A stretch of 64,000 nucleotides of DNA, taken from an uncultured Sellimonas sp. Lineage in GTDB: Bacteria; Bacillota; Clostridia; Lachnospirales; Lachnospiraceae. Where the stretch lies: assembly GCA_904393575.1 (NCBI GenBank), contig CAJFMZ010000001.1, positions 1,010 to 65,009 of the forward strand, read 5' to 3'. The notes beneath the pieces were generated by a model. It was not told where the DNA came from and searched no databases. It was given only the letters and a program-made list of their open reading frames with translations. A program made the translations under genes and the position numbers. Position 1 is the stretch's first letter. Each line of letters starts with the position of its first letter. Positions 227 to 21,793 of this stretch are shown here, piece after piece.

Positions 227-234
227 CATTCCGG

Positions 235-4550: not shown

Positions 4551-4663
4551 CTTTTTTATCTATTATGTATAATTTTTTTTCTGATTTTCGCTTTTTTTGT
4601 GCTTTTTATCCATCCTTTTCTGATGTATAATTCCCTTATCATGATAGAAAGGATCCTCTGTTT

Positions 4664-5533: not shown

Positions 5534-5536
5534 AAA

Positions 5537-5590
5537 AGTGTGTACCGGCTGAATAAATATGAATTTCAGCTGATACACACTTTTACTTTT
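5537..5590. terminator. Bidirectional terminator hairpin
   Basis: agtgtgtaccggctgaa (5537-5553) pairs with ttcagctgatacacact (5565-5581) with 2 mismatches. It is flanked by an A-run and a T-run, between convergent genes. Confidence 0.6.
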
Positions 5591-5623
5591 TATGTACTGC
5601 CTGATCCGGCAAATGCGCATCTA

Positions 5624-6880
5624 TTATTGCTGGCTCTGATAAGAAACCTGTTTCTTATCGTTGTATACGTCATAGTCGAATTCTCCGATCTTGCATGCAA
5701 CCAGCATGGCAACCATAACGTCTACGTCTACGTTCATCAATGTACGGAACATTCCTGCGAACCAGTCGATACCGATCAGGACTGCAATACTGTCCATCGG
5801 AAGTCCAAGAGAGGACGCCAGGAATGTATAAACAATCACAGAACCTCCCGGTACGGAGATCGTTCCAAGGCACATCAGACAGGAGAGCAGGATTGCCATA
5901 CCCATCTGGTATGCGCTCAGTTCAATGCCTGTTGCCTGTGCCATAAAGAAAATCGCTACCACATAGCACTGAGCAGCACCACAGCTGTTCATCGCCATGG
6001 TAATCGGACCTGTGAAATCCGCAACCTTACGGCTGACACCGAACTTCTCCACTTCGTCTTCCATCTTTGTCGGGAGACAGATCGCACCGGATGTCGTTGT
6101 AATTGCCATCATGGACATCTTGGCAAATTTCTTCGGCATCTTAAACAGGTTGACCTTGCAAAGAGCCGCTGTAAGAGGTCCGAATACAAGGAACTGGATT
6201 GCATCGCCCACAAGCAGAATTCCGAGGAATTTTGCCATCGGGATGATAACTGCAAATCCTGTCTTTCCGGCAACATCGGCCAGCAGACAGAAGATACCAA
6301 TCGGCGCTACCTTCATAACGATCTTGATAATGTTTGTAATAACAGCATTCACGCCTACTACCAGGTCTGCAATATTTCTGTTTTTCGTCTGTTTCGTGTA
6401 CTGTCCCATAGCCACACCGAAGAACAGCGCAAACACGATACAAGGCACCATGGATCCTTCCGCCATGGACTGAATGATGTTGGTCGGCACAAATGCAGTG
6501 ATCGTGTCCTGAAGGGATGTGGATACTGCTGTTTCCGTAACTTCCTCCGCACTCGACAGGTCAATGCCAAGTCCTGGTTTTACAAGGATCGCCATCACCG
6601 CACCAAGTGCTGCGGAAAAGATCGTAAATCCGATGATCCATTTGAATGTATGGAAGCCCATTTTTCCTACATCCCGTCCGTCTCCTCCGCCGACAGCGCC
6701 TGCCACGGCAGACATAACCAGAAGCACAACTGACATCTGAATCAGGCGCAGAAAGATATCACCGATAAACTTCAGGTTGGATGCCCACGGTCCTACGATC
6801 GCTCCAAAAACCAGACCGCCGACCGTACCAATCAGGATCTGAGTTGTCAATGAGATTGACAGTTTCTTCTTTTTCTCCAT
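5624..6880 (-). CDS. Dicarboxylate/amino acid:cation symporter (DAACS family)
   Basis: 418-aa polytopic protein with typical GltP/SstT-like segments. GGAAGGAAAG RBS. Confidence 0.8.
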   Translation of the reverse strand: MEKKKKLSISLTTQILIGTVGGLVFGAIVGPWASNLKFIGDIFLRLIQMSVVLLVMSAVAGAVGGGDGRDVGKMGFHTFKWIIGFTIFSAALGAVMAILVKPGLGIDLSSAEEVTETAVSTSLQDTITAFVPTNIIQSMAEGSMVPCIVFALFFGVAMGQYTKQTKNRNIADLVVGVNAVITNIIKIVMKVAPIGIFCLLADVAGKTGFAVIIPMAKFLGILLVGDAIQFLVFGPLTAALCKVNLFKMPKKFAKMSMMAITTTSGAICLPTKMEDEVEKFGVSRKVADFTGPITMAMNSCGAAQCYVVAIFFMAQATGIELSAYQMGMAILLSCLMCLGTISVPGGSVIVYTFLASSLGLPMDSIAVLIGIDWFAGMFRTLMNVDVDVMVAMLVACKIGEFDYDVYNDKKQVSYQSQQ

Positions 6881-7064
6881 CCATCTTTCCTTCCTTTCTC
6901 AAAATTTGGTCTTGGTAAACCATAACCAAAAAAGATATATTCTTATTTTATAGGATCATTCGTCCAGATACAATGTAAAAAAGAAGAGAAAAAATCCTTC
7001 GTTTTTATCCAACTTGTATATTTTTTTTTATTTTTTTCTCTATTTATCGTCTTTTTGCCACATT

Positions 7065-8309
7065 TTATTCTGTCTGTGCTTTTGATGCTGCCTCATAAAC
7101 ATCCATCGCCGCATTGACTGCCTCGCCTGTGGATACCTTGACACCGTTTCTCTTCATGACCGCCTCCAGCGCACCGAGAAGGATCAGAATGTTTCTCTTC
7201 TGGCTGGAGTATCCCATATTTCCGATCCGCAGGATCTTGCCATCCAACGGTCCGAAGGAAGTTGCGATTTCGATTCCGAATTCATTTAACAGCATGCCGC
7301 GGATTGCTTTTCCATCTGCTCCTTCCGGAATGTTGATGGCGGTTACCACCGGCATTTTATGTTCCAGGTCTCCGAAAATAGTCAGTCCCATCGCCTTTAA
7401 TCCTGCTGTCAGCGCCTTGTCGTTCAGTGCATGTCTTGCAAACCGTACTTCCAGTGTCTCATCCACGATGCAGCGAAGTGCTTCGTGTACAGCATACTGC
7501 ATACTTGTCGCCTCTGTATGATGGTTCAGACGGCGCGGGCTCCAGTAATCTTCCAGCTGTCCCAGATCCAGATAATTGCTTGGGATTCCTGCAAGAGTAC
7601 CCGCCACGTCATCTGCGGTACGGATTCCTTTTTCTACCCGTTTTCTCGCCTTGACGATCTGCTCAATCTGCTCATTGTATGTGATCAGCGCAGAACCAGA
7701 CGGTGCGGAAATACACTTCTGCGTTCCGGAGATACAAGCAGAGAGTTTCCAGTCATCCACTTTGACTTCTGTTCCTCCAAGAGTTGCCACAGCGTCCACA
7801 ATGAGAAGCGCTCCATAGCGCTCACAGATCTCACCAATCTCCTCCAACGGCTGCATCATGGACGTAGAAGTTTCTCCGTGGATACATGCTACCGCTTTAT
7901 AACTGTCCTTTTTCAGGGCGTCTTCGATTTCCTGCGGGTCAAATACAGTTCCCCATTCCTTTTCCAGAAGGGTGATGTCCGCACCGCAGCGCTCCAGAAT
8001 CTCTGCCAGCAGATATCCGAAACGTCCGAATGCCGGAATCAGGACTTTGTCTCCAGGGCAGATAGCGCCAGTGAGTACCGTCTCCAGACCACCTCTGGAT
8101 GTCGTATCTACAAGATAAGTCTGACGGTTTTTCGTCTGGAACACATAGCGTTCCATCTCCATGGTCTCATTCATCAAAGCGGTAAATTCCGGGTCAAACT
8201 GTCCCAGAATATGTGCACTCATAGCACGCAGCACTCTCGGATCTGCCTCCACAGGTCCTGGTGTCATCAACATACGTGGTGATGGATTGATTTCCTTAAA
8301 TGTTTTCAT
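7065..8309 (-). CDS. Class-V PLP aminotransferase (alanine/serine-glyoxylate type; PucG-like ureidoglycine-glyoxylate aminotransferase candidate)
   Basis: 414 aa, with the length and layout of the AGXT/PucG family. Sits in a ureide-cluster context. AAGGAGAAAAG RBS. Confidence 0.7.
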   Translation of the reverse strand: MKTFKEINPSPRMLMTPGPVEADPRVLRAMSAHILGQFDPEFTALMNETMEMERYVFQTKNRQTYLVDTTSRGGLETVLTGAICPGDKVLIPAFGRFGYLLAEILERCGADITLLEKEWGTVFDPQEIEDALKKDSYKAVACIHGETSTSMMQPLEEIGEICERYGALLIVDAVATLGGTEVKVDDWKLSACISGTQKCISAPSGSALITYNEQIEQIVKARKRVEKGIRTADDVAGTLAGIPSNYLDLGQLEDYWSPRRLNHHTEATSMQYAVHEALRCIVDETLEVRFARHALNDKALTAGLKAMGLTIFGDLEHKMPVVTAINIPEGADGKAIRGMLLNEFGIEIATSFGPLDGKILRIGNMGYSSQKRNILILLGALEAVMKRNGVKVSTGEAVNAAMDVYEAASKAQTE

Positions 8310-8364
8310 GTCTCTTTTCTCCTTTTCCTACTTTTAATACCCTTTTCCTTTTGATGTGTTTTCC

Positions 8365-9609
8365 TTACGCTGTCCGGAAGTTTTCGGACTGGTAAGAAAG
8401 CACTGCCGCATTGACAGCTTTTTTCATAATGTCGATGGCTTCATCCACATGTTCTTTCTTCAAAATCAGCGGTGGGATCATACGATTGGTACTCTCTCCG
8501 ATGGCTGTGATCAGAAGCCGTCTCTTCATACATTCTGCCTTCACTTCGTGGGCAATCGGAATGTCAAATTCGCATCCTGTCAGAAGTCCTCTTCCTCTGA
8601 CTTCTTTGATATGCGGGAGTTCTTTCATCCGTTTCATAAAGTAATCGCCCATGATTTTGGCATTCTCACTCAGGTTCTGGTCGAGAATCTCAGATACCGC
8701 CGCATACGCAGCTGCACATGCCACCGGATGTCCTCCGTAAGTGGAGCCGTGGGTTCCGGCAGTCATCACCTTTGCAAGCTCTTTTGTCATACAGCAGGCT
8801 CCGATCGGCATTCCGCCGCCCATTGCCTTCGCCATCGTAACTGCATCCGGTTTTACATGGTATCCCATGAATGCCATGATATCTCCTGTCCGTCCCCATC
8901 CGGTCTGTACTTCATCCAGAAGCAGAAGCATGCCTCTCTCATCACAGAGCTTTCTGAGTCCATCCATAAACTCCTGCGTTGCCGGATGCACGCCGCCTTC
9001 ACCCTGTACCGGTTCAATCATAATGGCAATCGTATTCTCCGTGCATTTGCTCTTGAAATCTTCCAGATTGTTGAATTCCGCATAGGAGAATCCTGGAAGC
9101 ATCGGCTTGAATCCCATCTGGCAGCTATTGTCCGGCTGTCCTGTTGCGGAAAGCGCACCGTATGTACGTCCGTGGAATCCATTTTTTGCGGTTACAATAT
9201 GATAGTGTTCCGGTCCGTATGTTTCTGTTCCATATTTTCTTGCCATCTTGATCATACACTCATTGGCCTCGGTTCCGGAATTCTGATAAAAGATTTTGTC
9301 CATGCCGATGGTATCACAGATCTTCTTTGCAAGCAAGGCCTGTGGAATGGTATATGGATAGTTAAATGTATGAATGATATCATCCGTCTGGTCATGAATG
9401 GCCTCTACCACCTTCGGATTTCTGCTTCCTACGCTGTTTACCGCTACTCCGCCGTAAAAATCCAGATACGCATTTCCTTTCTCGTCATACAGATACATTC
9501 CTTCCGCACGCTCCGCGATAAACGGATAACGCTCGTATGTTTCTACCATATATTTGTTGACGATTTTTTTCAGTTTGTCTGCTGTCAGCCCTGCTTCCTT
9601 TAATCTCAT
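8365..9609 (-). CDS. Class-III PLP aminotransferase (ArgD/GabT-like)
   Basis: Motifs LDFYGGVAVNSVG, EPVQGEGGV and DEVQTGWGRTG. Start was moved to MRLKEAG (ATG 9609, GGAAGAGGAG RBS). The 51-aa track extension runs into the intergenic region. Confidence 0.85.
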   Translation of the reverse strand: MRLKEAGLTADKLKKIVNKYMVETYERYPFIAERAEGMYLYDEKGNAYLDFYGGVAVNSVGSRNPKVVEAIHDQTDDIIHTFNYPYTIPQALLAKKICDTIGMDKIFYQNSGTEANECMIKMARKYGTETYGPEHYHIVTAKNGFHGRTYGALSATGQPDNSCQMGFKPMLPGFSYAEFNNLEDFKSKCTENTIAIMIEPVQGEGGVHPATQEFMDGLRKLCDERGMLLLLDEVQTGWGRTGDIMAFMGYHVKPDAVTMAKAMGGGMPIGACCMTKELAKVMTAGTHGSTYGGHPVACAAAYAAVSEILDQNLSENAKIMGDYFMKRMKELPHIKEVRGRGLLTGCEFDIPIAHEVKAECMKRRLLITAIGESTNRMIPPLILKKEHVDEAIDIMKKAVNAAVLSYQSENFRTA

Positions 9610-9672
9610 GCTGCTCCTCTTCCTTTCCTTGATTCTTTTTTGCTTTATCACATTAAAGTTTGCAAACAAAAA

Positions 9673-9705
9673 AATGGTGTCAGACCCTATCGATCTGACA
9701 CCATT
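9673..9705 (-). terminator. Intrinsic terminator downstream of the beta-galactosidase gene
   Basis: 12-bp stem: aatggtgtcaga (9673-9684) pairs with tctgacaccatt (9694-9705). A T-run follows on the minus strand (A-run 9666-9672). Confidence 0.75.
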
Positions 9706-9770
9706 GTCACGCGATATGCATAGTTTACCCCGTTTTTTTGTTCCTGTCAAATATTTTTTCAAATTTTTTC

Positions 9771-12854
<3,084 letters not shown>

Positions 12855-12987
12855 TTATTCTTTTCAGAATCTGTTCTGCATCCAGTATAAAATCCGCCCT
12901 TTCTTTTTGCAAGATTCCGCAGGAAAAATATGTATTTTTATACATTCATGCGTTGCAGAATTCCGGCTCCCGTTTTATAATAAAAAG

Positions 12988-13001
12988 TGAAAACGTTATC
13001 T
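12988..13001. promoter_or_regulatory. cre-like (CcpA-type) element upstream of the first rpiB-like gene
   Basis: TGAAAACGTTATCT fits TGNAANCGNWNNCW. The 13-mer AAAACGTTATCTT recurs at 18929-18941 in the kdgT operon promoter. Confidence 0.45.
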
Positions 13002-13102
13002 TAATTCTTACCGTAACACGTTGACTTCTATTCATAATAAAGTACAGTTATTTTTTTCAGACGGACGAAACGACAGACAGGAACTCAAAGGAGGTACTTA
13101 CT

Positions 13103-13555
13103 ATGAAATTAGTTGTTGGCGGAGATCATGCAGGGTATGAATTAAAGCAGAAGATTCTTGCTTATCTGGAGGAGCAGGGACACGAGGTGCTTCATGTGGG
13201 AAGCTACACTCCAGAGATGGTGGACTTTCCTGATATTGCAGCAAAAGTATGCAGGGCGATTCTGGACGGCGAAGCAGAGCGTGGTATTATGGTCTGCGGC
13301 ACCGGAGTCGGAGCGGCGATTGCCTGCAATAAATATCCGGGAATCCGAGCTTCGGTAGTCCACGATATCTATACTGCCCACCAGTGTGTGGAGCATGACA
13401 ATGTACAGGTTATGGCAATCGGCGGACAGATCGTAGGTGATGTGGTCGCCAAAGAATTGATTCAGCTTTTCCTGAATGCAACCTTTTCCGAAAGCGAAGA
13501 ATTCCGCAATCGGGTAGCCAAGTTAGAAAAGCTTGACCAGATTCCTCGTTCCTAA
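13103..13555 (+). CDS. RpiB/LacA/LacB-family sugar-phosphate isomerase
   Basis: 150 aa: MKLVVGGDHAGYELK...CGTGVGAAIACNK. AAAGGAGG RBS. Confidence 0.85.
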   Translation: MKLVVGGDHAGYELKQKILAYLEEQGHEVLHVGSYTPEMVDFPDIAAKVCRAILDGEAERGIMVCGTGVGAAIACNKYPGIRASVVHDIYTAHQCVEHDNVQVMAIGGQIVGDVVAKELIQLFLNATFSESEEFRNRVAKLEKLDQIPRS

Positions 13556-13573
13556 GAAACCGAAAGCCGAAAA

Positions 13574-13623
13574 AACCATCCATCATGCAGTTTGGACAAT
13601 CGTCCTTCTGATGATGGATGGTT
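13574..13623. terminator. Bidirectional terminator
   Basis: 13-bp stem: aaccatccatcat (13574-13586) pairs with atgatggatggtt (13611-13623). Flanked by an A-run and a T-run, between convergent genes. Confidence 0.75.
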
Positions 13624-13625
13624 TT

Positions 13626-14270
13626 TTAATCCATGTAATAAAAATTTCTGCACAGGGCCTGATCATAATAAATTGTTTCCTTCTCTATAAATTCACTTTT
13701 CCCGTCCTGTACCCGGAGAATACTGACCGCACAGTTTACAGGCACACCTTCCTGCCAGAAATTATCCGGGTTTTCATATAAACGATTCAAAATGCCTCGC
13801 ATGGCACACCCATGGGTGGAAACCAGAATCGTCTTATCTTGGTACCATGTTGTGTGAATCAGATCCTGATACCACTCCCAGGTACGCTCACACACCTGGC
13901 GTATGGTCTCTCCGCCCGGTGCTCCCGGAAATGCAAAGGGATTCTCGTAAAACAATCTTAAGGTGTTTTGGATGGATGGATACCGGGGATCCCCAACACC
14001 GATCCCGTCCCAGTCGCCCCAGTTAATTTCGCGGATTCTGGAATCCAGAAGAATAGGGCAGGATCTCCTGCCGATCACAATCTGTGCTGTTTCCAGTGCT
14101 CTGGAGAGGGGACTGGATACAGCCAGGTCGAACGGGACTTCATCTAGTGCCCTGGCTGTAATCTGGGCCAGTTTTCTTCCATTCTCATTCAGAGGCACAT
14201 CGTGCTGTCCCTGAAGACGACGTGCCTGATTCCAGTCAGTTTCCCCATGCCGTATCATATATAGCAGCAT
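13626..14270 (-). CDS. Histidine phosphatase family protein (phosphoglycerate-mutase-like)
   Basis: N-terminal MIRHGETDWN catalytic motif. 214 aa. Last gene of the minus-strand acid-sugar operon. Confidence 0.8.
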   Translation of the reverse strand: MLLYMIRHGETDWNQARRLQGQHDVPLNENGRKLAQITARALDEVPFDLAVSSPLSRALETAQIVIGRRSCPILLDSRIREINWGDWDGIGVGDPRYPSIQNTLRLFYENPFAFPGAPGGETIRQVCERTWEWYQDLIHTTWYQDKTILVSTHGCAMRGILNRLYENPDNFWQEGVPVNCAVSILRVQDGKSEFIEKETIYYDQALCRNFYYMD

Positions 14271-14293
14271 TATTTTTTGTTTCCTTTCCTCTC

Positions 14294-14761
14294 TCAGGCT
14301 CCCGCCTTCTCATGGCGGCATCTTTCATCGAGTTCTTTGATCTTCTCTACCTTTCTTCCCGATGGACAGGCCGGGTCAAATCTGCATTCCAGCCAGATAT
14401 CCACCAGTTTTTTTGCTACGGCCTCTCCTACAGCCAGCGCCCCGAACGTCAGAATCTGGGCATCGTTACTTTTTATTGCCCGCTCTGCCGAGTAAGGATC
14501 CGTACACTGTGCTGCACGGATTCCCGGCACTTTATTGGCCACGATGGCCATGCCGATCCCGGTTCCGCAGATCAGGATTCCCCTGTCGTAGATCCCTTCG
14601 GCCACTTCCTCGGCCACCTTCCATGCAATATCCGGGTAGTCAACCGGATCTTCTGTATAGACACCGGCATCTGTAACCTCCACACCTTTGTTACGGATGT
14701 GATCAGCCAGTACATTTTTCAGTCCCAGGCCATTATGGTCTGCTCCAATCACAATTTTCAT
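14294..14761 (-). CDS. RpiB/LacA/LacB-family sugar-phosphate isomerase (second copy)
   Basis: MKIVIGADHNG...CGTGIGMAIVANK. Its ATG overlaps the stop of the upstream TIM-like gene (ATGA). Confidence 0.85.
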   Translation of the reverse strand: MKIVIGADHNGLGLKNVLADHIRNKGVEVTDAGVYTEDPVDYPDIAWKVAEEVAEGIYDRGILICGTGIGMAIVANKVPGIRAAQCTDPYSAERAIKSNDAQILTFGALAVGEAVAKKLVDIWLECRFDPACPSGRKVEKIKELDERCRHEKAGA

Positions 14762-15549
14762 TTGTTTCCCCCTTGTTGTCGTAACATCTCTGCCGTATCC
14801 CAGACCAGTCTGCTATAGAGATCCGCATAGATTCCACAGCCTGTCGTAAACAGTCCGTTTACATCCGGAAGCGCTGCGATATCAAGGCTTCGCTCCATTG
14901 TGATTCCGCCTCCGTACACAATATAAGCATGATCTGCCGTCTTATCGCCGTATCGTTCTTTTAATATGTTTCGGATACCACGATGAACCGTCTGAATATG
15001 GTCAAGCGGTACGGCATTTTTCTTTCCGATTCCCCATCTTGGCTCATACGCAAAGATGATTCCGGAAGCCTCTTCTGCGTCAACGCCTTCCAGAAGTTCA
15101 TCCAGCTGATGCCGGATAAAGTTCTGTACGTCCTCCTCGGTTCCTCTTTCTTCTTCCCCCATGCAGAGAAACGGAATCAGGCCGAGGCGCAGCGCCAGCT
15201 TAAGCTTTTTATTCGACATTTTGTTATCTTCGTGTAAATATTTTCTACGTTCCTGATGATTGATTTCCACATATTTACATCCGATTTCCAGGAGCATCTT
15301 TCCGGAAACTTCTCCCGTATAGGCGCCTTCCTCCTCCCAGAACATATCCTGTCCGCCGATTTTCAGCGCACTGTCGGCTGAAAGATGCCTGCATATTTCC
15401 GGGATAGCCGGAAAAGAAGGGAAGATCACGACCGGGAAGTCATGAAATCCCGCCAGTTTCTTTTCCAGATCCCTTGCAGTTTCAATGCTGTCCTGATATG
15501 TTTTTACCATTTTCCATCCGGAACCAACAATAAAATGTTTCATGTTCAT
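14758..15549 (-). CDS. Triose-phosphate-isomerase-family protein (TIM-like)
   Basis: Motifs GSGWKM, EINHQERR and YEPRWGIG are TIM-like. Start was moved to MNMKHF (15549; 15543 is also possible). The track's 51-aa extension overlaps the pdxA-like gene. Confidence 0.75.
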   Translation of the reverse strand: MNMKHFIVGSGWKMVKTYQDSIETARDLEKKLAGFHDFPVVIFPSFPAIPEICRHLSADSALKIGGQDMFWEEEGAYTGEVSGKMLLEIGCKYVEINHQERRKYLHEDNKMSNKKLKLALRLGLIPFLCMGEEERGTEEDVQNFIRHQLDELLEGVDAEEASGIIFAYEPRWGIGKKNAVPLDHIQTVHRGIRNILKERYGDKTADHAYIVYGGGITMERSLDIAALPDVNGLFTTGCGIYADLYSRLVWDTAEMLRQQGGNK

Positions 15550-15554
15550 CCTGC

Positions 15555-16529
15555 CTATCGATTCTTCATAAATTCTTCCGCAACAAGCATCGCCTGCTTC
15601 ATATTTTCTCCATCTGCCACGCCTTTTCCCGCAATATCGAAGGCTGTCCCGTGGTCTACCGAAGTCCGTATGATCGGAAGTCCAATGGTGCAGTTGACAC
15701 ACTGGCTCATCAGCTGAAGCTTCGCGGCGATGTGCCCCTGGTCATGATACATGGCCACTGCTGCATCATACACTCCATTGAGTGTCTTACTAAATACCGT
15801 ATCCGGTGGAATCGGACCTTCCACATAGATCCCTTCCTGTTTCGTCTCTTCGATCGCCGGGGTAATCTCTTGGATTTCTTCATCTCCAAACAGTCCATGT
15901 TCTCCGGCATGCGGATTCAAACCGGCCACCGCAATGTGCGGACGTTCTATTCCCGTCTGAATCAAGGCCTGGTTCAAAAGACGGATCACATCGGCAACTC
16001 TTTGCTTGGTTGCCCGGTTACATGCCTCACGCAGAGAACAGTGGGTAGAAACATGCATGATCTTCAGCGGACCGTAGAACATCATCGCATAGGTCTTTGT
16101 ACCTGTCAGAGTTGCAAAAATCTCAGTGTGACCGTCATAAAGATGTCCGCCCATGTGGAGAGCCTCCTTGTTGAGCGGTGCAGTGACCACTGCCGCAATT
16201 TTGCCATTCATTGCATCTTTAATGCTCCGTTCGATATATTTGTACGCCGCATCTCCGCATTTTGCAGAAAGTTGCCCGATCTCATAGTCCTTCATCACAA
16301 GGCCACAGCTGTCAATGACATTCACCGCTCCTTCTTCGTATTCTTCCGGATCCTGGATCTCTACAATCCGGCATCCAAGACCAAGCATATCATTATAGTG
16401 TTCCAGAATATCCACAGCACCGTATACTACATACTGGTGCTCATATACGTCTTTCAGGGCAAGTGCCTTCATGATGATCTCCGGACCGACTCCGGCCGGA
16501 TCGCCCATTGTAATACCTATCAAACTCAT
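15555..16529 (-). CDS. PdxA-family NAD-dependent dehydrogenase (PdxA2 / acid-sugar type)
   Basis: MSLIGITMGDPAGVGPEI, HTEIF and a HDQGHIA-like motif. 324 aa. Immediately follows the DUF1537 kinase gene. Confidence 0.85.
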   Translation of the reverse strand: MSLIGITMGDPAGVGPEIIMKALALKDVYEHQYVVYGAVDILEHYNDMLGLGCRIVEIQDPEEYEEGAVNVIDSCGLVMKDYEIGQLSAKCGDAAYKYIERSIKDAMNGKIAAVVTAPLNKEALHMGGHLYDGHTEIFATLTGTKTYAMMFYGPLKIMHVSTHCSLREACNRATKQRVADVIRLLNQALIQTGIERPHIAVAGLNPHAGEHGLFGDEEIQEITPAIEETKQEGIYVEGPIPPDTVFSKTLNGVYDAAVAMYHDQGHIAAKLQLMSQCVNCTIGLPIIRTSVDHGTAFDIAGKGVADGENMKQAMLVAEEFMKNR

Positions 16530-16530
16530 G

Positions 16531-17748
16531 TCAATGCCTCTTCCTTTCTTTCAAAAATCGTATAGACTCAGCCAGTGCATTCTCATCCCCGATAGATCCG
16601 CCTTTTACAATCAGCGGAAGACCCGGATAGTCACCGTCAACCGTTTCCAGAAGAGCAATAATGGGCAGGACCTCCTCCACCAGTTTTGCACCGTGAGCAT
16701 GGTTCTTTTCCATAAAACTGATGGCCGTATCCCCTCCTGTCAAAAAGATGCCACATACATTTGCCCTTTTCAATATGATCGTGGACAATTCACCAATTTT
16801 CTCCTGAGTGTATCTTGCCACATCACCGCGTTTCATTCCCATTTTCTTTCCGGTGTCCACTGCGTCCAGGTAGTCCTCATGTTCCTTTGCTGAAACGATC
16901 ACGACATCGTTTCCAAGAGCCAGACCATCCACCGCCTCTCCGGCTGTCTTTTCCAGGGTTCCTCCTTTTAGCAGCTCTGCCACATTCATCTCTACAACCT
17001 GCGCGCCCTGCTCTTTCGCTTTTCTCACCTGGTTTCTGGATGTGTCACTGATGCTCCCCACAAAAGACAATACCGGATACCGCGGACACAGTGCCGAGAA
17101 CAGCGCATTTGCCATCCCCGCAGATCCAACCCAGAGTACCTTTTTATTCTGGCTCAGGATATAACGCACCACCGCATCCATATCCTCATTTTCCAATACA
17201 TCAAAGGTGATCAGCTTTGAGCCATCCAGCTCAAATTTTCTGCTCCGGATCTGGGCCAATGTAAAATACTGTACCGGTTCTCCCATCTCCGTCTCAAGCA
17301 GCGTCTTCAGATTGTCCTCCTGAACAAGGCACAGCGGATCCCGCATAATCTCTGTCTCACAGATCCTCACACCGTTCATCATCAAAATCCCGTCTACAAC
17401 CGTACGGTTAGAATCCGGATTTCCCGGATTAAACACAGTCAGATCCGGTTTCAGTACTTCCCTTGCAGCCATCAGTTCCGCTTTGATATTTCCACGGATT
17501 GTCGAGTCAATTTTCTTGTAATAATAATCAAACTGATACTGCTCCATATCCTGATAGATTTTTTTCACCTTCCGGTAAGCTTCCTGGGCCGGAATATTCC
17601 TCGATTCCGAATCAATCACATAGGACTGATTCGGATCAATTTCCTCGGTATTAAAAGCAATCCGCGCTTCAATTCCGTTTTTCGACATCTGGACCCCTGC
17701 ATCTCCCGCTCCGGTAAAATCATCAGCGATCATCAAAAACTTTGCCAT
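16531..17748 (-). CDS. Four-carbon acid-sugar kinase family protein (DUF1537; OtnK/DtnK/OiaK-like)
   Basis: N-terminal IADDFTGAGDAG motif. 405 aa. Paired with the PdxA-family gene. Confidence 0.85.
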   Translation of the reverse strand: MAKFLMIADDFTGAGDAGVQMSKNGIEARIAFNTEEIDPNQSYVIDSESRNIPAQEAYRKVKKIYQDMEQYQFDYYYKKIDSTIRGNIKAELMAAREVLKPDLTVFNPGNPDSNRTVVDGILMMNGVRICETEIMRDPLCLVQEDNLKTLLETEMGEPVQYFTLAQIRSRKFELDGSKLITFDVLENEDMDAVVRYILSQNKKVLWVGSAGMANALFSALCPRYPVLSFVGSISDTSRNQVRKAKEQGAQVVEMNVAELLKGGTLEKTAGEAVDGLALGNDVVIVSAKEHEDYLDAVDTGKKMGMKRGDVARYTQEKIGELSTIILKRANVCGIFLTGGDTAISFMEKNHAHGAKLVEEVLPIIALLETVDGDYPGLPLIVKGGSIGDENALAESIRFLKERKRH

Positions 17749-17773
17749 GGTTTACCAAACCTCCATTTTACCG

Positions 17774-18751
17774 CTATTTTCCTGCCGCCGCCTCAGGCAC
17801 TGCTCCTTTCGGAAACTTCGGACAGCCAAATTTCTTCGCCCACCAGCTTACAATGAATGGAACCAGCAGAGCAGACAGCACGGTCGATGCCGCAACCTGT
17901 ACCGTCGCTGTACCTACAAAACTGGCCCATGCCGGATCCGCCGTTCCGATAACCGCCGGAACCGCAACCGCATTCCCCGCTGTCGTCGCCACTGCCCAGG
18001 CCGCATATCCAGGACGTCTTCCAATGTAGTGATCGCACAGATAAATAAACGCTCCTCCAATAAAAATAGTTGTAAGTCCAAGAAGAATACCGGATAATCC
18101 ACCTTCTACTACACTTGCAAGGTCAATTCCAGCACCAAGCGCAATTCCGGTAAATGGAATAATCGCATCCCCAACCGGTCCAAAGAACTCGGTCACTTTA
18201 TTGTCCAGGTTTCCAAGAATCATACCAGCAAGAATCGGAACCAGCGCTGCGACAAGACTCATAATCGGGATATCCGCCAGACCAGAAACACCAAGCGCAA
18301 GCAGTGTCAGGAACGGACCATCGTTAATAGCCAGAATCGGCATACATGCACAGTCAATATCATCCCCATATGTCTGCATCAGCGCATAGTAAACACTACC
18401 GTTACTGTTTGTAACCGCACAGATAATCGCCATACTGGAAATTCCAAAAATACCGGCCGGACCAAAGATACGCCCAACCACGATACCAAGAATTGCACCA
18501 ATGGCAAACTTGGAAATCAAAAGCAGTCCTCCACGTTTCAAAACCGCCGGCATCTCCTTCAGACGAAGCTTTGTCCCCATACAGAACAACAGAATACCAA
18601 GCGCACAGTTACTTCCGGCACTGGAAAACGTCGCCGTGGTAATTCCACCGATCTGTAACGCATCCGGAACAAACGTATTCAGCAAACACCCTATAAACAA
18701 CGGAACAACCATCATGCCCGCCGGCACTTTCCTCAAAAAATTCATAATCAT
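17774..18751 (-). CDS. kdgT: KdgT-family (2-keto-3-deoxygluconate-type) permease
   Basis: 325 aa, collinear with remembered KdgT (VPAGMMVVPLFIGCLLNTF...ILGNLD...). AGGAGG RBS. Confidence 0.8.
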   Translation of the reverse strand: MIMNFLRKVPAGMMVVPLFIGCLLNTFVPDALQIGGITTATFSSAGSNCALGILLFCMGTKLRLKEMPAVLKRGGLLLISKFAIGAILGIVVGRIFGPAGIFGISSMAIICAVTNSNGSVYYALMQTYGDDIDCACMPILAINDGPFLTLLALGVSGLADIPIMSLVAALVPILAGMILGNLDNKVTEFFGPVGDAIIPFTGIALGAGIDLASVVEGGLSGILLGLTTIFIGGAFIYLCDHYIGRRPGYAAWAVATTAGNAVAVPAVIGTADPAWASFVGTATVQVAASTVLSALLVPFIVSWWAKKFGCPKFPKGAVPEAAAGK

Positions 18752-18770
18752 ATGCGTTCTTACCTCCTGT

Positions 18771-18835
18771 CTCCTTCACATATGTAATCTCTCCACATCT
18801 TACATTTCGTCTCTTCCTTACATTGATCCTTACAT
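18771..18835 (-). repeat. Five-fold direct repeat in the 5' leader of the kdgT operon
   Basis: Forward copies: CTTCACAT (ends 18781), CTCCACAT (ends 18798), CTTACAT (ends 18805, 18823 and 18835). On the mRNA these read AUGU(A/G)(A/G)GGA-like. The three best copies read AUGUAAG. Confidence 0.5.
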
Positions 18836-18900
18836 ACCGGATTTTTGCCGCCCTCATGGCCACTCGGACTGCAAAAATCCCCCACAATCCCTCCTTTGCC

Positions 18901-18930
18901 ATTGTAAAAATGTACAATTATTTTTTTCAA
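18901..18930 (-). promoter_or_regulatory. Candidate sigma-A promoter of the kdgT-kinase-pdxA-TIM-rpiB operon
   Basis: On the minus strand: TTGAAA (18925-18930), 18-nt spacer, TACAAT (18901-18906). The -35 box overlaps the AAAACGTTATCTT motif at 18929-18941. Confidence 0.5.
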
Positions 18931-19050
18931 AACGTTATCTTTATATTCACATTGTATATCCACCCATCCGGTTTGCTAAGAATGAAAATTATTTGCTTCA
19001 CCAGCATACCGAAAAAACTTTCAAACCATACGCCACTGAAAAATTTTTAT

Positions 19051-19086
19051 CGGGGACGTGTACCGATGCATCGGTACACGTCCCCG
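19051..19086. terminator. Perfect 36-nt palindromic hairpin downstream of the SorC regulator gene
   Basis: cggggacgtgtaccgatg / catcggtacacgtccccg form an 18-bp stem, flanked by A/T-rich runs. Confidence 0.75.
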
Positions 19087-19112
19087 TTTATTAAAGTATT
19101 ATTTTTGTTGTT

Positions 19113-20120
19113 TTATTTTGTTTCTTCTCTGTGGAGTTTTAAGACAGTTTCGCCTAATTTGTTGTCTACGATCAGGACATCGATGAGCCCGCCTTTGAGT
19201 GCGGCGAGTACAGCGTGTGCTTTTTCTTTTCCTGATGCGAGTGTGATTTTGACTGGTATTTTTCTGAATTGTTCCAGACTGATGGAGATGGTTCGTTCTT
19301 TTAGTTCTGTGTCGCATTCATTGCCGTCTTTATCCAGAAATCGGAGTGCCACGTCGCCGATGACGTGGTGTTCTTTCAGCATGGCGACTTCGTCTGGCGA
19401 TAGGTAATATGGTTTTGCCAGAATGGAGGTTACTTTGGGATAGAATGCCCCGATTCCGTTAATTGCGATATTTACTTTATCAAACATATCCATAACCTGG
19501 GAGATGCTTTTTTCTTTTTTTAGCATCTTGACTGTTTCCGCTGAGTTCATCAGAGTGTCGGTTAACAGGATGTATTTCCGTCCGGAGAATGCTTTTGCCA
19601 TTCTGGAGACAAGTGTTCTGACGTCCCATTCTGTCACGCAGTTGCTTAGGCTTCCGTGGAGTGTAACGAAAGTGGTGTTTGCTTTTTGTGCCGGGTTGAG
19701 GTAGTTGATCATCTGATAGACCGTGCTTCCCCATGTCACTCCCAGTACATCGTTTTCTTTGATCACTCTCTGCAAATATCTTGCGCCTTCCAGTGCAACC
19801 AGCTTTTTCACCATTTCCGGATCTACGGAGGAATCGTCACCGTCTTCTTCCATGTTATCGATAACCGGGCTGATGATGACTTCTTTGAGTCCGAATTCCT
19901 TGCTGATTTCCTGACCGAGATTGAGACATTCTACATATGGATTGCGGATGACAAATTCGATAATCTTCTCGTCCCTGGCTCTTTTTAGCAATCTTGATAC
20001 GGTTGTGACTGAGACATCCAGTTCTTCTGCAATCTGGTTTTGGGACTTTTCAAGGATATAATACTGATATGCTGCCTTCAAAACCAAAAATACAGATTGA
20101 TCATACTTATCTAGTTTCAT
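19113..20120 (-). CDS. SorC/DeoR(Bsu)-family sugar-binding transcriptional regulator
   Basis: N-terminal HTH (QNQIAEELDVSVTTVSRLLKRA) plus a C-terminal sugar-phosphate-binding domain. 335 aa. Divergent from the RLP gene. Confidence 0.85.
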   Translation of the reverse strand: MKLDKYDQSVFLVLKAAYQYYILEKSQNQIAEELDVSVTTVSRLLKRARDEKIIEFVIRNPYVECLNLGQEISKEFGLKEVIISPVIDNMEEDGDDSSVDPEMVKKLVALEGARYLQRVIKENDVLGVTWGSTVYQMINYLNPAQKANTTFVTLHGSLSNCVTEWDVRTLVSRMAKAFSGRKYILLTDTLMNSAETVKMLKKEKSISQVMDMFDKVNIAINGIGAFYPKVTSILAKPYYLSPDEVAMLKEHHVIGDVALRFLDKDGNECDTELKERTISISLEQFRKIPVKITLASGKEKAHAVLAALKGGLIDVLIVDNKLGETVLKLHREETK

Positions 20121-20375
20121 CTTTTTTCTCCTTTCTTCCCAAACCTCTTTCGTTTTCTTTTCATTATACGGTTTTCTTTTTTATTTTGCAATTATTTTCA
20201 AATACTGGAAACTTTTTCCGAACGTAATCCTATATATGTCTCTTTTCCACATGTTCTGTCAGGATATCGTTTAGGTATATGGAAAATATTTTCACTATTG
20301 AAATTATTCTCACCTTGTTCTACATTTAGCTCAGAACAAGAACACAAATGTACCGTTGTAAGGAGGTAAACGATA

Positions 20376-21716
20376 ATGAAACAAAACAGGATGTTCAGTG
20401 ATCTGCTTAACCCATTATATGAAGGCTGTGATCTTAATAATCTGTGTGTGGCAACCTATCTGGTCGGCGCTGAGAAGGACGAGGGAATTGTAGTGAAAGC
20501 TCAGAGTATTGGTATTGAGCAGACAACCGGTTCCTGGGTAGATGTCCCGGCTGAGACGGATGAAGTGCGTGCAAAATACTGTTCCAAGGTGATTGGTATT
20601 TACGAAGTACCTGCTTATGAAAACCAGACGAATGTCAATCTTGCAGTAGGAAAGGATGATCTTCGGTTTTATGTCATCCGGATCGGCTACCCGGTAGACA
20701 ATATCCGGAACAATATTCCACTTCTAATTGCTTCGATTACCGGAAATATCATGTCCATGCCGTATCTGAAACTTCTGGACATTGATTTCCCGGAAAGTTT
20801 TGTGAAAGATTTCCAGGGTCCAAAATTCGGCATTCAGGGAATCCGGGATATTCTTCATGCTTATGATCGTCCGCTTCTCAACAATATGATCAAACCTTGT
20901 ACCGGATATACACCGGATGTAGGAGAGAAGCTGTTCTTTGAGGCAGCTGCAGGCGGAGTGGATATCATCAAGGACGATGAGCTCATCGGCGGCGACCGTG
21001 TATTTAATAAAATTGAAGACCGTGTCAAAGCAAACATGGCTGCTGCAAAGCGTGCGGAGGAAATCAAGGGTGAACCTACGTTGTATGCATGCAATATTAC
21101 AGACGATGTGACAAAATTAAAAGAAAATGCAATGAAGGTTATCAACAACGGTGGAAACTGTATCATGGTGGACGTACACGGCGTAGGATATTCCGCAGTC
21201 CGCGCTCTGGCGGAAGATCCGGACATTACAGTTCCGATTCTTGGACATTCCTGCTTCAACGGCGCATTTACAACGTCACCGTATCAGGGCATGAGCTCCA
21301 AGGTCGTTGCCAAACTTGCCCGTCTTTCCGGATGCGACATTTATCTGACACAGCCGCCTTATGGTAAATTTGACAATACATTTGACAACTATATCATCAA
21401 CCTGATTACATCCAAGGCGAAAATGTACGACATCAAACCGATGCTTCCATTTGTCGGCGGCGGTGTGGTAGCGGGTCTTGTCCCGAAATTCCTGGACGAT
21501 GCGGGAATTGACGTTCTCCTTGGAGTCGGCGCCGGAATCCATGCCCATCCAATGGGACCTCGTGCAGGAGCACAGGCATTCCGTGCCGCGATCGATGCAT
21601 GTATGAATGATGTACCGCTGCGTGAAAAGGCAAAAGAATGCGAAGCACTGCATGTTGCCCTGGAAAAATGGGGCGTATATGGTGAAGATCATTCGAAAGA
21701 CCTTTACGCAATCTGA
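20376..21716 (+). CDS. RuBisCO-like protein (form IV large-subunit homolog)
   Basis: DRPLLNNMIKPCTGYT...GGVDIIKDDELIG aligns to RuBisCO GRPLLGCTIKPKLGLS...GGLDFTKDDENVN. The KDDE motif is retained and the second Lys of KPK is Cys. AAGGAGG RBS. Confidence 0.85.
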   Translation: MKQNRMFSDLLNPLYEGCDLNNLCVATYLVGAEKDEGIVVKAQSIGIEQTTGSWVDVPAETDEVRAKYCSKVIGIYEVPAYENQTNVNLAVGKDDLRFYVIRIGYPVDNIRNNIPLLIASITGNIMSMPYLKLLDIDFPESFVKDFQGPKFGIQGIRDILHAYDRPLLNNMIKPCTGYTPDVGEKLFFEAAAGGVDIIKDDELIGGDRVFNKIEDRVKANMAAAKRAEEIKGEPTLYACNITDDVTKLKENAMKVINNGGNCIMVDVHGVGYSAVRALAEDPDITVPILGHSCFNGAFTTSPYQGMSSKVVAKLARLSGCDIYLTQPPYGKFDNTFDNYIINLITSKAKMYDIKPMLPFVGGGVVAGLVPKFLDDAGIDVLLGVGAGIHAHPMGPRAGAQAFRAAIDACMNDVPLREKAKECEALHVALEKWGVYGEDHSKDLYAI

Positions 21717-21751: not shown

Positions 21752-21793
21752 CGGGAGCCGGACTCCTGCCCCAGGGCAGAATTCCGGCTCCCG
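21752..21793. terminator. Bidirectional terminator between the RLP gene and the GH20 gene
   Basis: cgggagccgga (21752-21762) pairs with tccggctcccg (21783-21793). The right arm is part of the 18-nt repeat also found at 12955-12972. Confidence 0.7.

What the first reader, a model, noticed from the sequence alone, without database searches (positions are those of the whole stretch)
13103..21716. RuBisCO-like protein embedded in a DUF1537-kinase / PdxA / TIM-like / 2x RpiB-like / KdgT cluster: a variant branched or four-carbon acid-sugar pathway
Seen in the sequence:
- A form-IV RLP that retains the KDDE carbamylation/metal motif but has IKPCTG where RuBisCO has IKPKLG.
- It is divergently transcribed from a SorC regulator.
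- It sits next to an operon encoding a KdgT-type permease, a four-carbon acid-sugar kinase (IADDFTGAGDAG), a PdxA-family dehydrogenase, a TIM-like protein, an RpiB-like protein and a histidine phosphatase.
- A second RpiB-like gene lies on the plus strand.

Established knowledge, as I recall it:
- DUF1537 kinases with PdxA2 act in D-threonate/D-erythronate catabolism (Gerlt laboratory, 2016).
- RLPs act as 3-oxo-isoapionate-4-phosphate decarboxylase or transcarboxylase/hydrolase in D-apionate catabolism, together with a DUF1537 kinase and an oxidoisomerase (same laboratory, 2018).
- TIM-like and RpiB-like isomerases convert erythrulose phosphates to erythrose-4-phosphate in erythritol catabolism (Brucella EryH/EryI, 2014).

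Inference: this cluster combines all three toolkits. An acid sugar would be imported by KdgT rather than by an ABC or TRAP system, oxidised, phosphorylated, (trans)decarboxylated by the RLP, and the tetrulose phosphate isomerised to erythrose-4-P. The exact substrate, and the roles of the phosphatase and the duplicated RpiB, are open.
Basis: partly seen in the sequence, partly recalled or inferred. Interest (0 to 1): 0.65.

Follow-up and report, generated by a model that had tools for sequence, protein, structure and literature searches.

The report
Uncharacterised RuBisCO-like enzyme regulon, acid-sugar version
A gut Lachnospiraceae genome carries a RuBisCO-like enzyme from a large unstudied subfamily that shares a repressor and operator with an acid-sugar import, kinase and dehydrogenase operon; in most other bacteria the same enzyme sits with an unusual glycerol-kinase-like polyol module, so its reaction is probably new.

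Summary
The functional link is supported. The same cluster recurs in related gut Firmicutes. A palindrome, GAAAATATTTTC, marks the promoters of the RLP, SorC and kdgT-operon genes about 25 times more densely than other intergenic DNA.

The RLP is not an apionate-type OiaX, not MtnW and not a RuBisCO. It belongs to a distinct clade with invariant IKPCTG. The clade keeps E60, N123, K175, K201, D203, E204, H294 and K334 but has lost the second phosphate site.

Most clade members sit with polyol modules, not acid-sugar genes:
- SorC, a non-canonical GlpK-like kinase and a G3P-dehydrogenase-type complex.
- PTS plus dehydrogenase.

The acid-sugar context is a derived version inside one gut subclade. 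There, all 33 catalytic or pocket positions checked are identical between acid-context and polyol-context RLPs, so both feeders probably supply the same keto-phosphate.

The TIM-like and RpiB-like genes resemble EryH and EryI.

Best reading: the RLP enolises a short 2-keto-1-phosphate, a tetrulose-1-P or DHAP type, at the point where the feeders converge. The exact reaction is unproven. This is a new variant of RLP-dependent sugar catabolism and worth biochemical study.

The parts
20376..21716 (+). RuBisCO-like protein (446 aa) of the 'IKPCTG' clade; monocistronic
   Evidence: Pfam RuBisCO_large and RuBisCO_large_N. Below every NCBIfam equivalog cut-off: MtnW 320 of 409, OiaX 193 of 700. Residue pattern. 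AF2 model pLDDT 89.7 with TM 0.83-0.88 to RLPs and form III. Terminator hairpin at 21752-21793.
20121..20375 (.). Divergent sorC / RLP control region with the exact operator palindrome GAAAATATTTTC at 20282-20293 and degenerate copies at 20188 and 20300
   Evidence: The same palindrome lies upstream of RLP and SorC in orthologous loci.
19113..20120 (-). SorC/DeoR-type sugar-phosphate-binding repressor, own transcription unit
   Evidence: PF04198 at 210 bits plus an HTH. It is 53-61% identical to the SorC of polyol-type RLP loci and 26% identical to Rhizobium EryD. Hairpin at 19051-19086 downstream.
18752..19050 (-). kdgT operon leader and promoter (-35/-10 at 18930-18901), with operator-like sites near 19011 and about 18975 and a cre-like box at 18929-18941
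   Evidence: Copies with at most 1 mismatch lie upstream of kdgT in L002, L004 and L017.
17774..18751 (-). KdgT-family permease (acid-sugar importer)
   Evidence: PF03812 at 378 bits. Scores 224 against the KdgT equivalog cut-off of 454, so it is not KdgT itself.
16531..17748 (-). DUF1537 four-carbon acid-sugar kinase family, DtnK-like
   Evidence: SBD_N + NBD_C. Best NCBIfam model is D-threonate kinase, 256 against a cut-off of 450; OtnK 85, OiaK 46. Homologs at 60% identity or more always lie next to KdgT, PdxA, SorC and RLP.
15555..16529 (-). PdxA-family NAD-dependent (oxidatively decarboxylating) dehydrogenase, PdxA2-like
   Evidence: PF04166 at 344 bits. TIGR00557 352 (cut-off 290). D-threonate-4-P dehydrogenase model 333 of 583.
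14758..15543 (-). Non-canonical TIM paralog, EryH/LerI-like
   Evidence: PF00121. Scores 177 against the TIM equivalog cut-off of 293. Asn11 is Gly, loop 6 reads IGKK, Ser211 is Gly. Rhizobium EryH has Asn11 as Ser and loop 6 IGEK.
14294..14761 (-). RpiB-family isomerase, EryI/DerI-like, translationally coupled to the TIM-like gene
   Evidence: 46% identical to Rhizobium EryI, against 35% for rpiB2. DerI model 171 of 240.
13626..14270 (-). Histidine phosphatase (branch 1), last gene of the operon
   Evidence: PF00300 at 158 bits, below all equivalog cut-offs. A phosphatase (HisPhos, HAD or PHP) accompanies 9 of 11 acid-type and 14 of 32 glycerol-type RLP loci.
13103..13555 (+). Second RpiB-family gene, probably co-repressed but not a conserved cluster member
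   Evidence: PF02502. Found only in the window and L001. Its promoter shares a 41-nt segment with the kdgT promoter (families D4 and D11). Bidirectional terminator at 13570-13627.

Best explanation
The RLP and its SorC repressor form the constant core of a regulon. Different bacteria plug in different 'phosphorylate then oxidise' feeder modules.

In this genome the proposed steps are:
1. A KdgT-type permease imports a small acid sugar. It is most simply a threonate- or erythronate-like tetronate, or a C2-branched or C5 relative.
2. The DtnK-like DUF1537 kinase phosphorylates its terminal hydroxyl.
3. The PdxA2-like dehydrogenase oxidises the carbon next to the CH2-O-P, with loss of CO2. The product is a short 2-keto-1-phosphate of the form P-O-CH2-CO-CHOH-R.
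4. The RLP binds this through its intact first phosphate site and its Mg2+/carbamyl-lysine centre. It forms the 2,3-enediolate and re-protonates it. This is an epimerase or carbonyl-shift isomerase reaction of the EryC / R. rubrum RLP type.
5. The EryH-like TIM paralog and the EryI-like RpiB carry the tetrulose phosphate on to erythrose-4-phosphate.
6. The histidine phosphatase trims a surplus or wrong sugar phosphate.

What is shown:
- Gene identities.
- Conserved linkage.
- The shared operator.
- The clade's residue pattern.
- Identity of the pocket in acid-type and polyol-type contexts.

What is inferred:
- The substrate.
- That the RLP step is a proton transfer rather than a C-C reaction.
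- The order of the isomerases.
For: Linkage:
- The window-type cluster recurs in 7 further loci anchored on the RLP.
- It recurs in 3 of 3 loci anchored on kinase homologs of 60% identity or more.

Co-regulation: GAAAATATTTTC with at most 1 mismatch occurs
- 82 times in 51.7 kb upstream of RLP, SorC, kdgT, kinase and Fng genes,
- 9 times in 141 kb of other intergenic DNA,
- 23 times in 1.22 Mb of coding DNA.
It is exact at 20282 in the window.

Residues:
- All 81 clade members keep E60, W66, N123, K175, K201, D203, E204, H294, K334, G381 and G403.
- K177 is replaced by C.
- R295, H298 and H327 are lost.
The substrate is therefore a monophosphate with a RuBP-like C1-C3 end.

Common node: 12 acid-context and 11 polyol-context RLPs of the gut subclade are identical at 33 of 33 catalytic or pocket positions.

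C4 hints:
- TIM-like and RpiB1 resemble EryH and EryI.
- The regulator is of the same family as EryD.
- All 36 RLP-linked GlpK-like kinases have GTAG[V/C/T] in place of the canonical GTG(G/C)F. By my recollection of the E. coli structure, that Phe, Phe270, contacts glycerol.
- Canonical GlpK loci never carry an RLP, 0 of 47.
- SDR, FGGY and AP_endonuc_2 (the EryC family) genes occur in the same regulon.

Two near-invariant Cys residues (C175 in 81 of 81, C293 in 74 of 81) flank the catalytic Lys and His. This fits a two-base proton-transfer enzyme.
Against: - No assay or expression data exist. No usable RNA run was found.
- Known DtnK/PdxA2 chemistry on plain tetronates gives DHAP, not a tetrulose phosphate. 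The KdgT-kinase-PdxA trio also exists without an RLP in Thermoanaerobacterium. The trio may therefore be self-sufficient.
- A tetrulose-1-P from the acid route needs an unusual branched acid.
- K334, E60 and N123 serve carboxylation in RuBisCO. K334 is also kept in the OiaX decarboxylase but not in MtnW. This points to carboxyl chemistry rather than simple proton transfer.
- The RLP-linked kinases still pass the GlpK equivalog cut-offs. In some phyla they come with GlpF, GlpP and GlpABC, so glycerol and DHAP cannot be excluded.
- Phosphatases recur next to the RLP, which a route to erythrose-4-P does not need.
Confidence: 0.4

Rival explanations
1. OiaX-like beta-keto-acid decarboxylase. The PdxA homolog only oxidises the 4-phospho-tetronate (or a branched relative) to the 3-oxo acid. 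The RLP then decarboxylates it through the Mg-enediolate to DHAP or erythrulose-1-P. This is essentially the first reader's proposal.
For: - The pairing of an RLP with a DUF1537 kinase and a dehydrogenase mirrors OiaK/OiaX.
- K334 is kept here and in OiaX but not in MtnW.
- A second, independent DtnK-like/PdxA pair, with a TRAP transporter, also sits next to this RLP in L003 and L019.
- A Haloarcula RLP is followed by a DUF1537 kinase.
Against: - Most clade members sit in polyol or PTS modules that have no carboxylate.
- Pocket residues are identical between acid and polyol contexts.
- By my recollection of Zhang et al. 2016, PdxA2-type enzymes decarboxylate by themselves.
- The trio works without an RLP in Thermoanaerobacterium.
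- OiaX model 193 of 700, 28-30% identity.
Confidence: 0.2
2. DHAP node. Both feeder types make DHAP: glycerol through a variant GlpK plus FngABC or GlpABC, and tetronates through DtnK-like plus PdxA2-like. The RLP acts on DHAP or its enediolate. One possibility is a RuBisCO-like carboxylation and hydrolysis; another is a reaction that pulls DHAP away.
For: - DHAP is the only compound that the known chemistry of both modules yields.
- The RLP pockets are identical in both contexts.
- The kinases keep the residues at the positions I recall as glycerol H-bonding in E. coli GlpK, and score as GlpK.
- GlpF, GlpP and GlpABC occur in Sporomusa, Desulfosporosinus and Desulfovibrionaceae loci.
- The RuBisCO carboxylation residues E60, N123, K334 and H294 are all kept, and only the P2 site is lost.
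Against: - An RLP is never found with canonical GlpK operons, 0 of 47, although these also use FngABC.
- The Phe270 position is always replaced in RLP-linked kinases.
- This reading gives no role to the EryH/EryI-like genes.
- No formate-related or C1-related genes recur in the loci.
Confidence: 0.15
3. MtnW/MtnX-like enolase-phosphatase logic. A second oxidation gives a 2,3-diketo-1-phosphate. The RLP enolises it. The adjacent phosphatase (HisPhos here; HAD or PHP elsewhere) removes the phosphate, and a small cupin processes the reductone.
For: - MtnW is the closest characterised relative: 34% identity, best PDB and NCBIfam hits.
- Three unrelated phosphatase families recur beside the RLP.
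- Cupin_2 genes and an SDR are frequent neighbours.
Against: - No phosphatase is present in the PTS-type loci, and phosphatases are found in only about half of the glycerol-type loci.
- The clade keeps E60, N123 and K334, which MtnW lacks.
- These are anaerobes, so an ARD-type dioxygenase step is implausible.
- The window has no SDR or cupin.
Confidence: 0.1
4. The adjacency is incidental. The KdgT-kinase-PdxA(-TIM-RpiB) operon is a complete acid-sugar route, and the SorC-RLP pair beside it serves another pathway encoded elsewhere.
For: - The trio is autonomous in Thermoanaerobacterium.
- The RLP and sorC are separate transcription units.
- The whole 8.8-kb block looks inserted into a glycan locus (repeat D6).
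Against: - The operator is shared by the RLP, SorC and kdgT promoters across species.
- 3 of 3 kinase-anchored loci carry the RLP.
- The association arose at least three times in the tree.
- No polyol module is present elsewhere in the 64-kb window.
Confidence: 0.07

Closest known systems
OiaK / OiaX (and OiaT) module of oxidative D-apionate catabolism (Carter et al. 2018; summarised in PMC13753588)
   Same: - An RLP is combined with a DUF1537 kinase and an NAD-dependent dehydrogenase acting on a small acid sugar.
- EryH/EryI-type isomerases lie downstream in some apionate routes.
- K175, K201, D203, E204, H294 and K334 are kept.
   Different: - 28-30% identity, and OiaX model 193 of 700.
- Different clade in the tree.
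- No ApnO.
- The kinase is DtnK-like, not OiaK-like (46 of 700).
- A PdxA-type dehydrogenase is used.
- R295 is lost here and kept in OiaX.
- Most relatives of this RLP are in polyol loci, not acid-sugar loci.
DtnK / PdxA2 D-threonate (and D-erythronate) pathway (Zhang et al. 2016, from memory; NCBIfam NF047819, NF002891)
   Same: An adjacent DUF1537 kinase and PdxA-family dehydrogenase, following the order phosphorylate, then oxidise and decarboxylate. Both best-scoring NCBIfam models are the DtnK and PdxA families.
   Different: - Both proteins score far below the equivalog cut-offs (256 of 450; 333 of 583).
- The importer is a KdgT-family permease.
- An RLP, an EryH-like TIM, an EryI-like RpiB, a phosphatase and a SorC repressor are added.
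Erythritol catabolism of Brucella and Rhizobium (eryABCD plus eryH/tpiA2 and eryI/rpiB; locus L085 on pRL12)
   Same: - A SorC-family regulator.
- Kinase plus FAD G3P-dehydrogenase-like oxidation of a polyol phosphate to a 2-keto-1-phosphate, in the polyol-type RLP loci.
- A non-canonical TIM lacking Asn11 next to an RpiB-family isomerase, in the window.
   Different: - The window has no EryA or EryB. It uses an acid-sugar kinase and PdxA instead.
- An RLP stands where EryC would act.
- Identities are low: EryH 32%, EryI 46%, EryD 26%.
- The polyol-type kinases are GlpK-like, not EryA-like.
MtnW / YkrW 2,3-diketo-5-methylthiopentyl-1-phosphate enolase (PDB 2oek, 2zvi, 4nas)
   Same: - Closest characterised relative by sequence (34-37% identity) and fold.
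- A monophosphate substrate, with the P2 site lost.
- K175, K201, D203, E204 and H294 are kept.
   Different: - Below the MtnW cut-offs.
- A separate clade.
- Keeps E60, N123 and K334, which MtnW lacks.
- No methionine-salvage genes in any of the 80 loci.

Membership tests
MtnW/YkrW enolase | Score above the curated equivalog cut-offs (TIGR03332 513.6; NF007095 409) | tested here: not met
   279.4 and 320.3 bits.
MtnW/YkrW enolase | Groups inside the MtnW clade | tested here: not met
   The three MtnW structures group with distant sequences (L068b and others). The window RLP lies in a separate 75-row clade with SH-aLRT 98.
MtnW/YkrW enolase | Neighbourhood of methionine-salvage genes (mtnK, mtnA, mtnB, mtnX, mtnD) | tested here: not met
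   None in the window cluster or in the conserved gene families of the 80 related loci. The whole genome could not be searched because the genome search was shut.
OiaX 3-oxo-isoapionate-4-phosphate decarboxylase | Score above the NF042437 cut-off (700) | tested here: not met
   192.6 bits. 28-30% identity to annotated OiaX proteins.
OiaX 3-oxo-isoapionate-4-phosphate decarboxylase | Partnered with ApnO oxidoisomerase and OiaK kinase | tested here: not met
   No KARI-like ApnO gene is present. The kinase scores 45.8 against the OiaK cut-off of 700.
OiaX 3-oxo-isoapionate-4-phosphate decarboxylase | Decarboxylase activity on a 3-oxo-4-phospho acid | not testable with these tools
   Needs an enzyme assay.
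Bona fide RuBisCO (forms I-III) | Complete set of catalytic and both phosphate-site residues | tested here: not met
   K177 is C, R295 is S, H298 is N, H327 is L, S379 is G. E60, N123, K175, K201, D203, E204, H294 and K334 are kept.
DtnK/PdxA2 D-threonate module | Kinase and dehydrogenase above the equivalog cut-offs (NF047819 450; NF002891 583) | tested here: not met
   256.3 and 333 bits. Only the generic PdxA model TIGR00557 is passed (352 of 290).
DtnK/PdxA2 D-threonate module | Adjacent, co-oriented DUF1537 kinase and PdxA-family genes | tested here: met
   16531-17748 and 15555-16529, 1 nt apart. The pairing is conserved in all window-type loci.
EryH/EryI tetrulose-phosphate isomerase pair | Non-canonical TIM (Asn11 lost, altered loop 6) next to an RpiB-family gene closer to EryI/DerI than to housekeeping RpiB | tested here: inconclusive
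   - Asn11 is Gly here and Ser in EryH; loop 6 reads IGKK here and IGEK in EryH.
- RpiB1 is 46% identical to EryI, against 35% for RpiB2.
- However, the TIM-like protein is only 32% identical to EryH, against about 40% to T. maritima TIM.
- The DerI model scores 171 of 240.
SorC/DeoR-type sugar-phosphate repressor | N-terminal HTH plus PF04198 sugar-binding domain; operator in its own and its target promoters | tested here: met
   PF04198 at 210 bits. The palindrome is enriched about 25-fold upstream of regulon genes, and only in loci that encode the SorC. Binding itself was not tested.

The most novel reading that the evidence does not exclude
The 'IKPCTG' RLP clade may be a half-substrate RuBisCO. 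It has lost only the distal phosphate site and Lys177. It keeps every residue RuBisCO uses for enolisation, CO2 addition (E60, N123, K334), hydration (H294) and final protonation (K175).

It could therefore be a genuine CO2-using carboxylase/hydrolase, or an OiaT-like transcarboxylase, acting on a short 2-keto-1-phosphate in strict anaerobes. Two candidate reactions:
- erythrulose-1-P + CO2 -> 3-phosphoglycerate + glycolate.
- DHAP + CO2 -> 3-phosphoglycerate + formate.

A new family of erythritol- or threitol-type GlpK-like kinases, or acid-sugar kinase plus PdxA modules, would feed it.
Probability: 0.08. Interest if true: 0.95.

Novelty: new variant of a known kind. Interest (0 to 1): 0.68.

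Why it matters
RuBisCO-like proteins have repeatedly revealed unexpected chemistry: an enolase, a 1,3-isomerase, a decarboxylase and a transcarboxylase.

This clade is large. The species-representative genome collection gave 421 confirmed relatives, spread over Firmicutes, Acidobacteria, Chloroflexi, Actinobacteria, Desulfovibrionaceae and common human-gut Lachnospiraceae. It has no assigned function.

The work here gives a concrete, testable frame:
- A defined operator and repressor.
- Interchangeable feeder modules that narrow the substrate to a short 2-keto-1-phosphate.
- A previously unnoticed GlpK-like kinase subfamily, with GTAG[V/C/T] in place of GTG(G/C)F, that occurs with the RLP and not in ordinary glycerol operons.

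Solving it would add a reaction to the RuBisCO superfamily. It would also explain how gut anaerobes use tetronates, which are breakdown products of vitamin C, and small polyols.

Tried and rejected
- RNA evidence for co-expression: the look-up of sequencing runs returned only an unlabelled contig set holding the stretch, plus unrelated runs. Not used.
- Whole-genome questions (a second glpK, mtn genes, a polyol module elsewhere): the genome search and the fetch from genomes were shut. Only the 64-kb window could be scanned, and it has no polyol-module genes.
- Literature: no paper links an RLP to glycerol kinase, DUF1667, erythritol or threonate. Zhang 2016, Carter 2018 and Tabita 2007 are not held, so their content is cited from memory or through PMC13753588.
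- Rejected, 'ordinary glycerol operon plus RLP': canonical GlpK loci never carry the RLP (0 of 47).
- Rejected, 'RLP is MtnW': scores, tree, residues and context all argue against it.
- Rejected, 'rpiB2 is a core member': it occurs only in the window and L001.
- Fold search added nothing beyond confirming the RuBisCO large-subunit fold.
- The 18-nt flank repeat is absent from the S. intestinalis BR72 locus. The island idea was not pursued further.

Full report
**Observation**

ORF listing and profile searches confirm nine genes at the stated coordinates. The parts list gives their positions. The RLP reads NNMIKPCTG and IIKDDE as quoted.

The minus-strand genes kdgT, kinase, pdxA-like, TIM-like, rpiB1 and hisP are spaced by -4 to 25 nt, so they form one operon.
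- sorC is separate. A perfect 18+18 hairpin at 19051-19086 follows it.
- The kdgT operon has its own promoter-like site at 18930-18901.
- The RLP is monocistronic, with a hairpin at 21752-21793.

The block sits between a GH2 beta-galactosidase and a GH20/ABC glycan locus. The organism is close to Sellimonas intestinalis; the RLP is 96% identical to strain BR72.

**What the RLP is not**

- It fails every NCBIfam equivalog cut-off: MtnW 320 of 409 and 279 of 514, form III 273 of 497, OiaX 193 of 700.
- Its best solved relatives are MtnW enolases at 34-37% identity.
- I aligned it with a form I RuBisCO, a form II RuBisCO, an annotated OiaX and three MtnW sequences.
  - All 81 clade members keep E60, T/S65, W66, N123, K175, K201, D203, E204, H294, K334, G381 and G403.
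  - K177 is always Cys. R295, H298 and H327, which form the distal phosphate site, are lost. S379 is lost too.
  - MtnW lacks E60, N123 and K334. OiaX keeps K334 and R295.
- An AlphaFold model (pLDDT 89.7) has the RuBisCO large-subunit fold.

**Where its relatives live**

A scan of species-representative genomes gave 421 confirmed relatives, and 80 loci were fetched. Synteny by tblastn, ORF clustering and Pfam shows these contexts:
- The window-type acid context (KdgT, DtnK-like kinase, PdxA-like) occurs only in a few gut Firmicutes.
- A second acid context uses a different DtnK-like/PdxA pair with a TRAP transporter (L003, L019).
- The commonest context is SorC, a GlpK-like kinase, FngA/FngB/FngC, sometimes a cupin or HAD, then the RLP. 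FngABC is the G3P-dehydrogenase-type electron-bifurcating complex of PMC13689815.
- Sporomusa, Desulfosporosinus and Desulfovibrionaceae have GlpA, RLP, kinase, GlpF, GlpB, GlpC, HAD and GlpP.
- Other lineages have PTS components with a Zn-ADH or an SDR.

In the tree the acid contexts are nested in one gut subclade of 26 rows with support 100. Its deeper relatives are polyol-type. Acid and polyol contexts are interleaved, with at least three switches. Pseudoramibacter alactolyticus carries one RLP copy of each kind.

**Regulon**

Upstream regions of orthologous loci share the palindrome GAAAATATTTTC. Allowing one mismatch, it occurs:
- 82 times in 51.7 kb of intergenic DNA upstream of RLP, SorC, kdgT, kinase, Fng, FGGY or HAD genes;
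- 9 times in 141 kb of other intergenic DNA from the same loci;
- 23 times in 1.22 Mb of coding DNA.

It appears only in loci that encode the SorC. In the window the exact copy lies at 20282-20293, and degenerate copies lie at 20188, 20300 and 19011. The RLP and the acid-sugar operon are therefore very probably co-repressed. The same repressor and operator system (SorC 53-61% identical) governs the polyol modules elsewhere.

**Same pocket in both contexts**

Within the gut subclade, 12 acid-context and 11 polyol-context RLPs are identical at all 33 catalytic, phosphate-site and loop-6 positions checked. The 13 positions that separate the two contexts lie elsewhere. The two feeder types therefore most probably deliver the same compound, or compounds sharing the P-O-CH2-CO-CHOH end.

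**The polyol feeder is not an ordinary glycerol operon**

- All 36 GlpK-like kinases next to an RLP read GTAG(V/C/T) where canonical GlpK reads GTG(G/C/A)F. From memory of the E. coli structure, that Phe is Phe270, which contacts the glycerol backbone.
- Among the 120 closest database homologs, the 44 nearest have the variant and the other 76 have the canonical motif.
- Starting from the kinase, 4 of 4 variant kinases are followed by FngABC and an RLP.
- Two canonical kinases sit in GlpP-GlpF-GlpK-FngABC operons without an RLP.
- A metagenome scan gave 0 of 47 canonical loci with an RLP, against 6 of 8 non-canonical loci (6 of the 7 with the GTAG motif).
- One A. woodii variant locus has a class II aldolase and a PHP phosphatase in place of the RLP.

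**The acid feeder**

- Kinase homologs of 60% identity or more are always found with KdgT, PdxA, SorC and the RLP.
- A 43% homolog in Thermoanaerobacterium has KdgT-kinase-PdxA without an RLP or SorC. The trio can therefore stand alone.
- The TIM-like protein has lost Asn11 (Gly), the IGTG loop (IGKK) and Ser211. This pattern is conserved in all its orthologs.
- Rhizobium EryH, fetched from the pRL12 erythritol locus, shows parallel changes (Ser, IGEK).
- RpiB1 is 46% identical to EryI, against 35% for RpiB2.
- TIM-like and rpiB1 overlap by 4 nt.

**Reading**

The constant core is SorC plus the RLP, often with a phosphatase. The variable part phosphorylates and then oxidises a small polyol or acid sugar. 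The RLP therefore acts on a short 2-keto-1-phosphate.

I favour an enolisation-based isomerase or epimerase step at a tetrulose-phosphate node, followed here by EryH-like and EryI-like isomerases. The reasons:
- The EryH/EryI-like genes.
- The enlarged-pocket kinases.
- The EryC-family, SDR and FGGY genes in the same regulon.
- The two conserved cysteines beside the catalytic Lys and His.

The reading is uncertain. Plain tetronates with DtnK/PdxA2 chemistry give DHAP. The kept K334, E60 and N123 point to carboxyl chemistry. The recurring phosphatases are unexplained. The rivals are therefore an OiaX-like decarboxylase, a DHAP-centred reaction, and MtnW/MtnX-like logic.

**Novelty**

I found no description of this clade, its regulon or the variant GlpK subfamily in the searchable literature. 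It is best classed as a new variant of RLP-dependent sugar catabolism with an unknown reaction.

Noticed in passing
L006, L025 and 34 other loci (kinase genes); proteins P0002-P0042, P0110: A discrete GlpK-like kinase subfamily has GTAG(V/C/T) in place of the canonical GTG(G/C/A)F. By my recollection this is the Phe270 glycerol contact. Every RLP-linked GlpK-like kinase has the variant. The RLP accompanied 6 of the 7 variant-kinase loci reached independently of the RLP search, and 0 of 47 canonical loci. The kinase may act on a larger polyol.
   Followed up: partly
L099:13896-15761: In an Acetobacterium woodii MAG the variant kinase and FngABC are followed by a class II (FBA/tagatose-bisP type) aldolase and a PHP phosphoesterase where other genomes have the RLP. 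This may be a non-orthologous replacement. Transketolase, transaldolase and FBA genes lie upstream.
   Followed up: no
window 12955-12972 and 21776-21793: An exact 18-nt direct repeat brackets the whole 8.8-kb cluster. The right copy is one arm of the hairpin at 21752-21793. The block separates a GH2 gene from a GH20/ABC glycan locus, which suggests insertion. The 18-mer is absent from the S. intestinalis BR72 locus.
   Followed up: partly
window 12990-13059 and 18905-18944: The promoters of the plus-strand rpiB2 and of the kdgT operon share about 41 nt. The shared segment includes a cre-like box, TGAAAACGTTATCT or TCAAAACGTTATCT, so catabolite repression of both units is likely.
   Followed up: no
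L095:133-2563 and 13959-17206: In Drancourtella massiliensis the same SorC-RLP / KdgT-kinase-PdxA-HisP block lies between TIR/SIR2 defence-type genes and serine recombinases. RLPs about 78-80% identical also occur in an Eggerthellaceae genome (L011) and in MAGs labelled Bacteroidaceae. The block appears to move horizontally.
   Followed up: no
L084:286-1836: A Haloarcula plasmid encodes an RLP that groups with OiaX and keeps E60, N123, R295, H327 and K334. A DUF1537 kinase gene overlaps its end.
   Followed up: no
L068, L070-L072 (both strands around 200-11300): Chloroflexi loci carry two divergent RLPs, 34-37% identical to each other, both with KPCTG. They flank a PTS (EIIC-GAT, IIB, IIA, HPr, EI), an aminotransferase and a PRD regulator. 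The second RLP groups with MtnW in the tree.
   Followed up: no
window 38000-42000: G+C drops to 0.31-0.34, against about 0.48 elsewhere, over two long minus-strand ORFs (38363-39970 and 40001-41572). This is probably foreign DNA.
   Followed up: no
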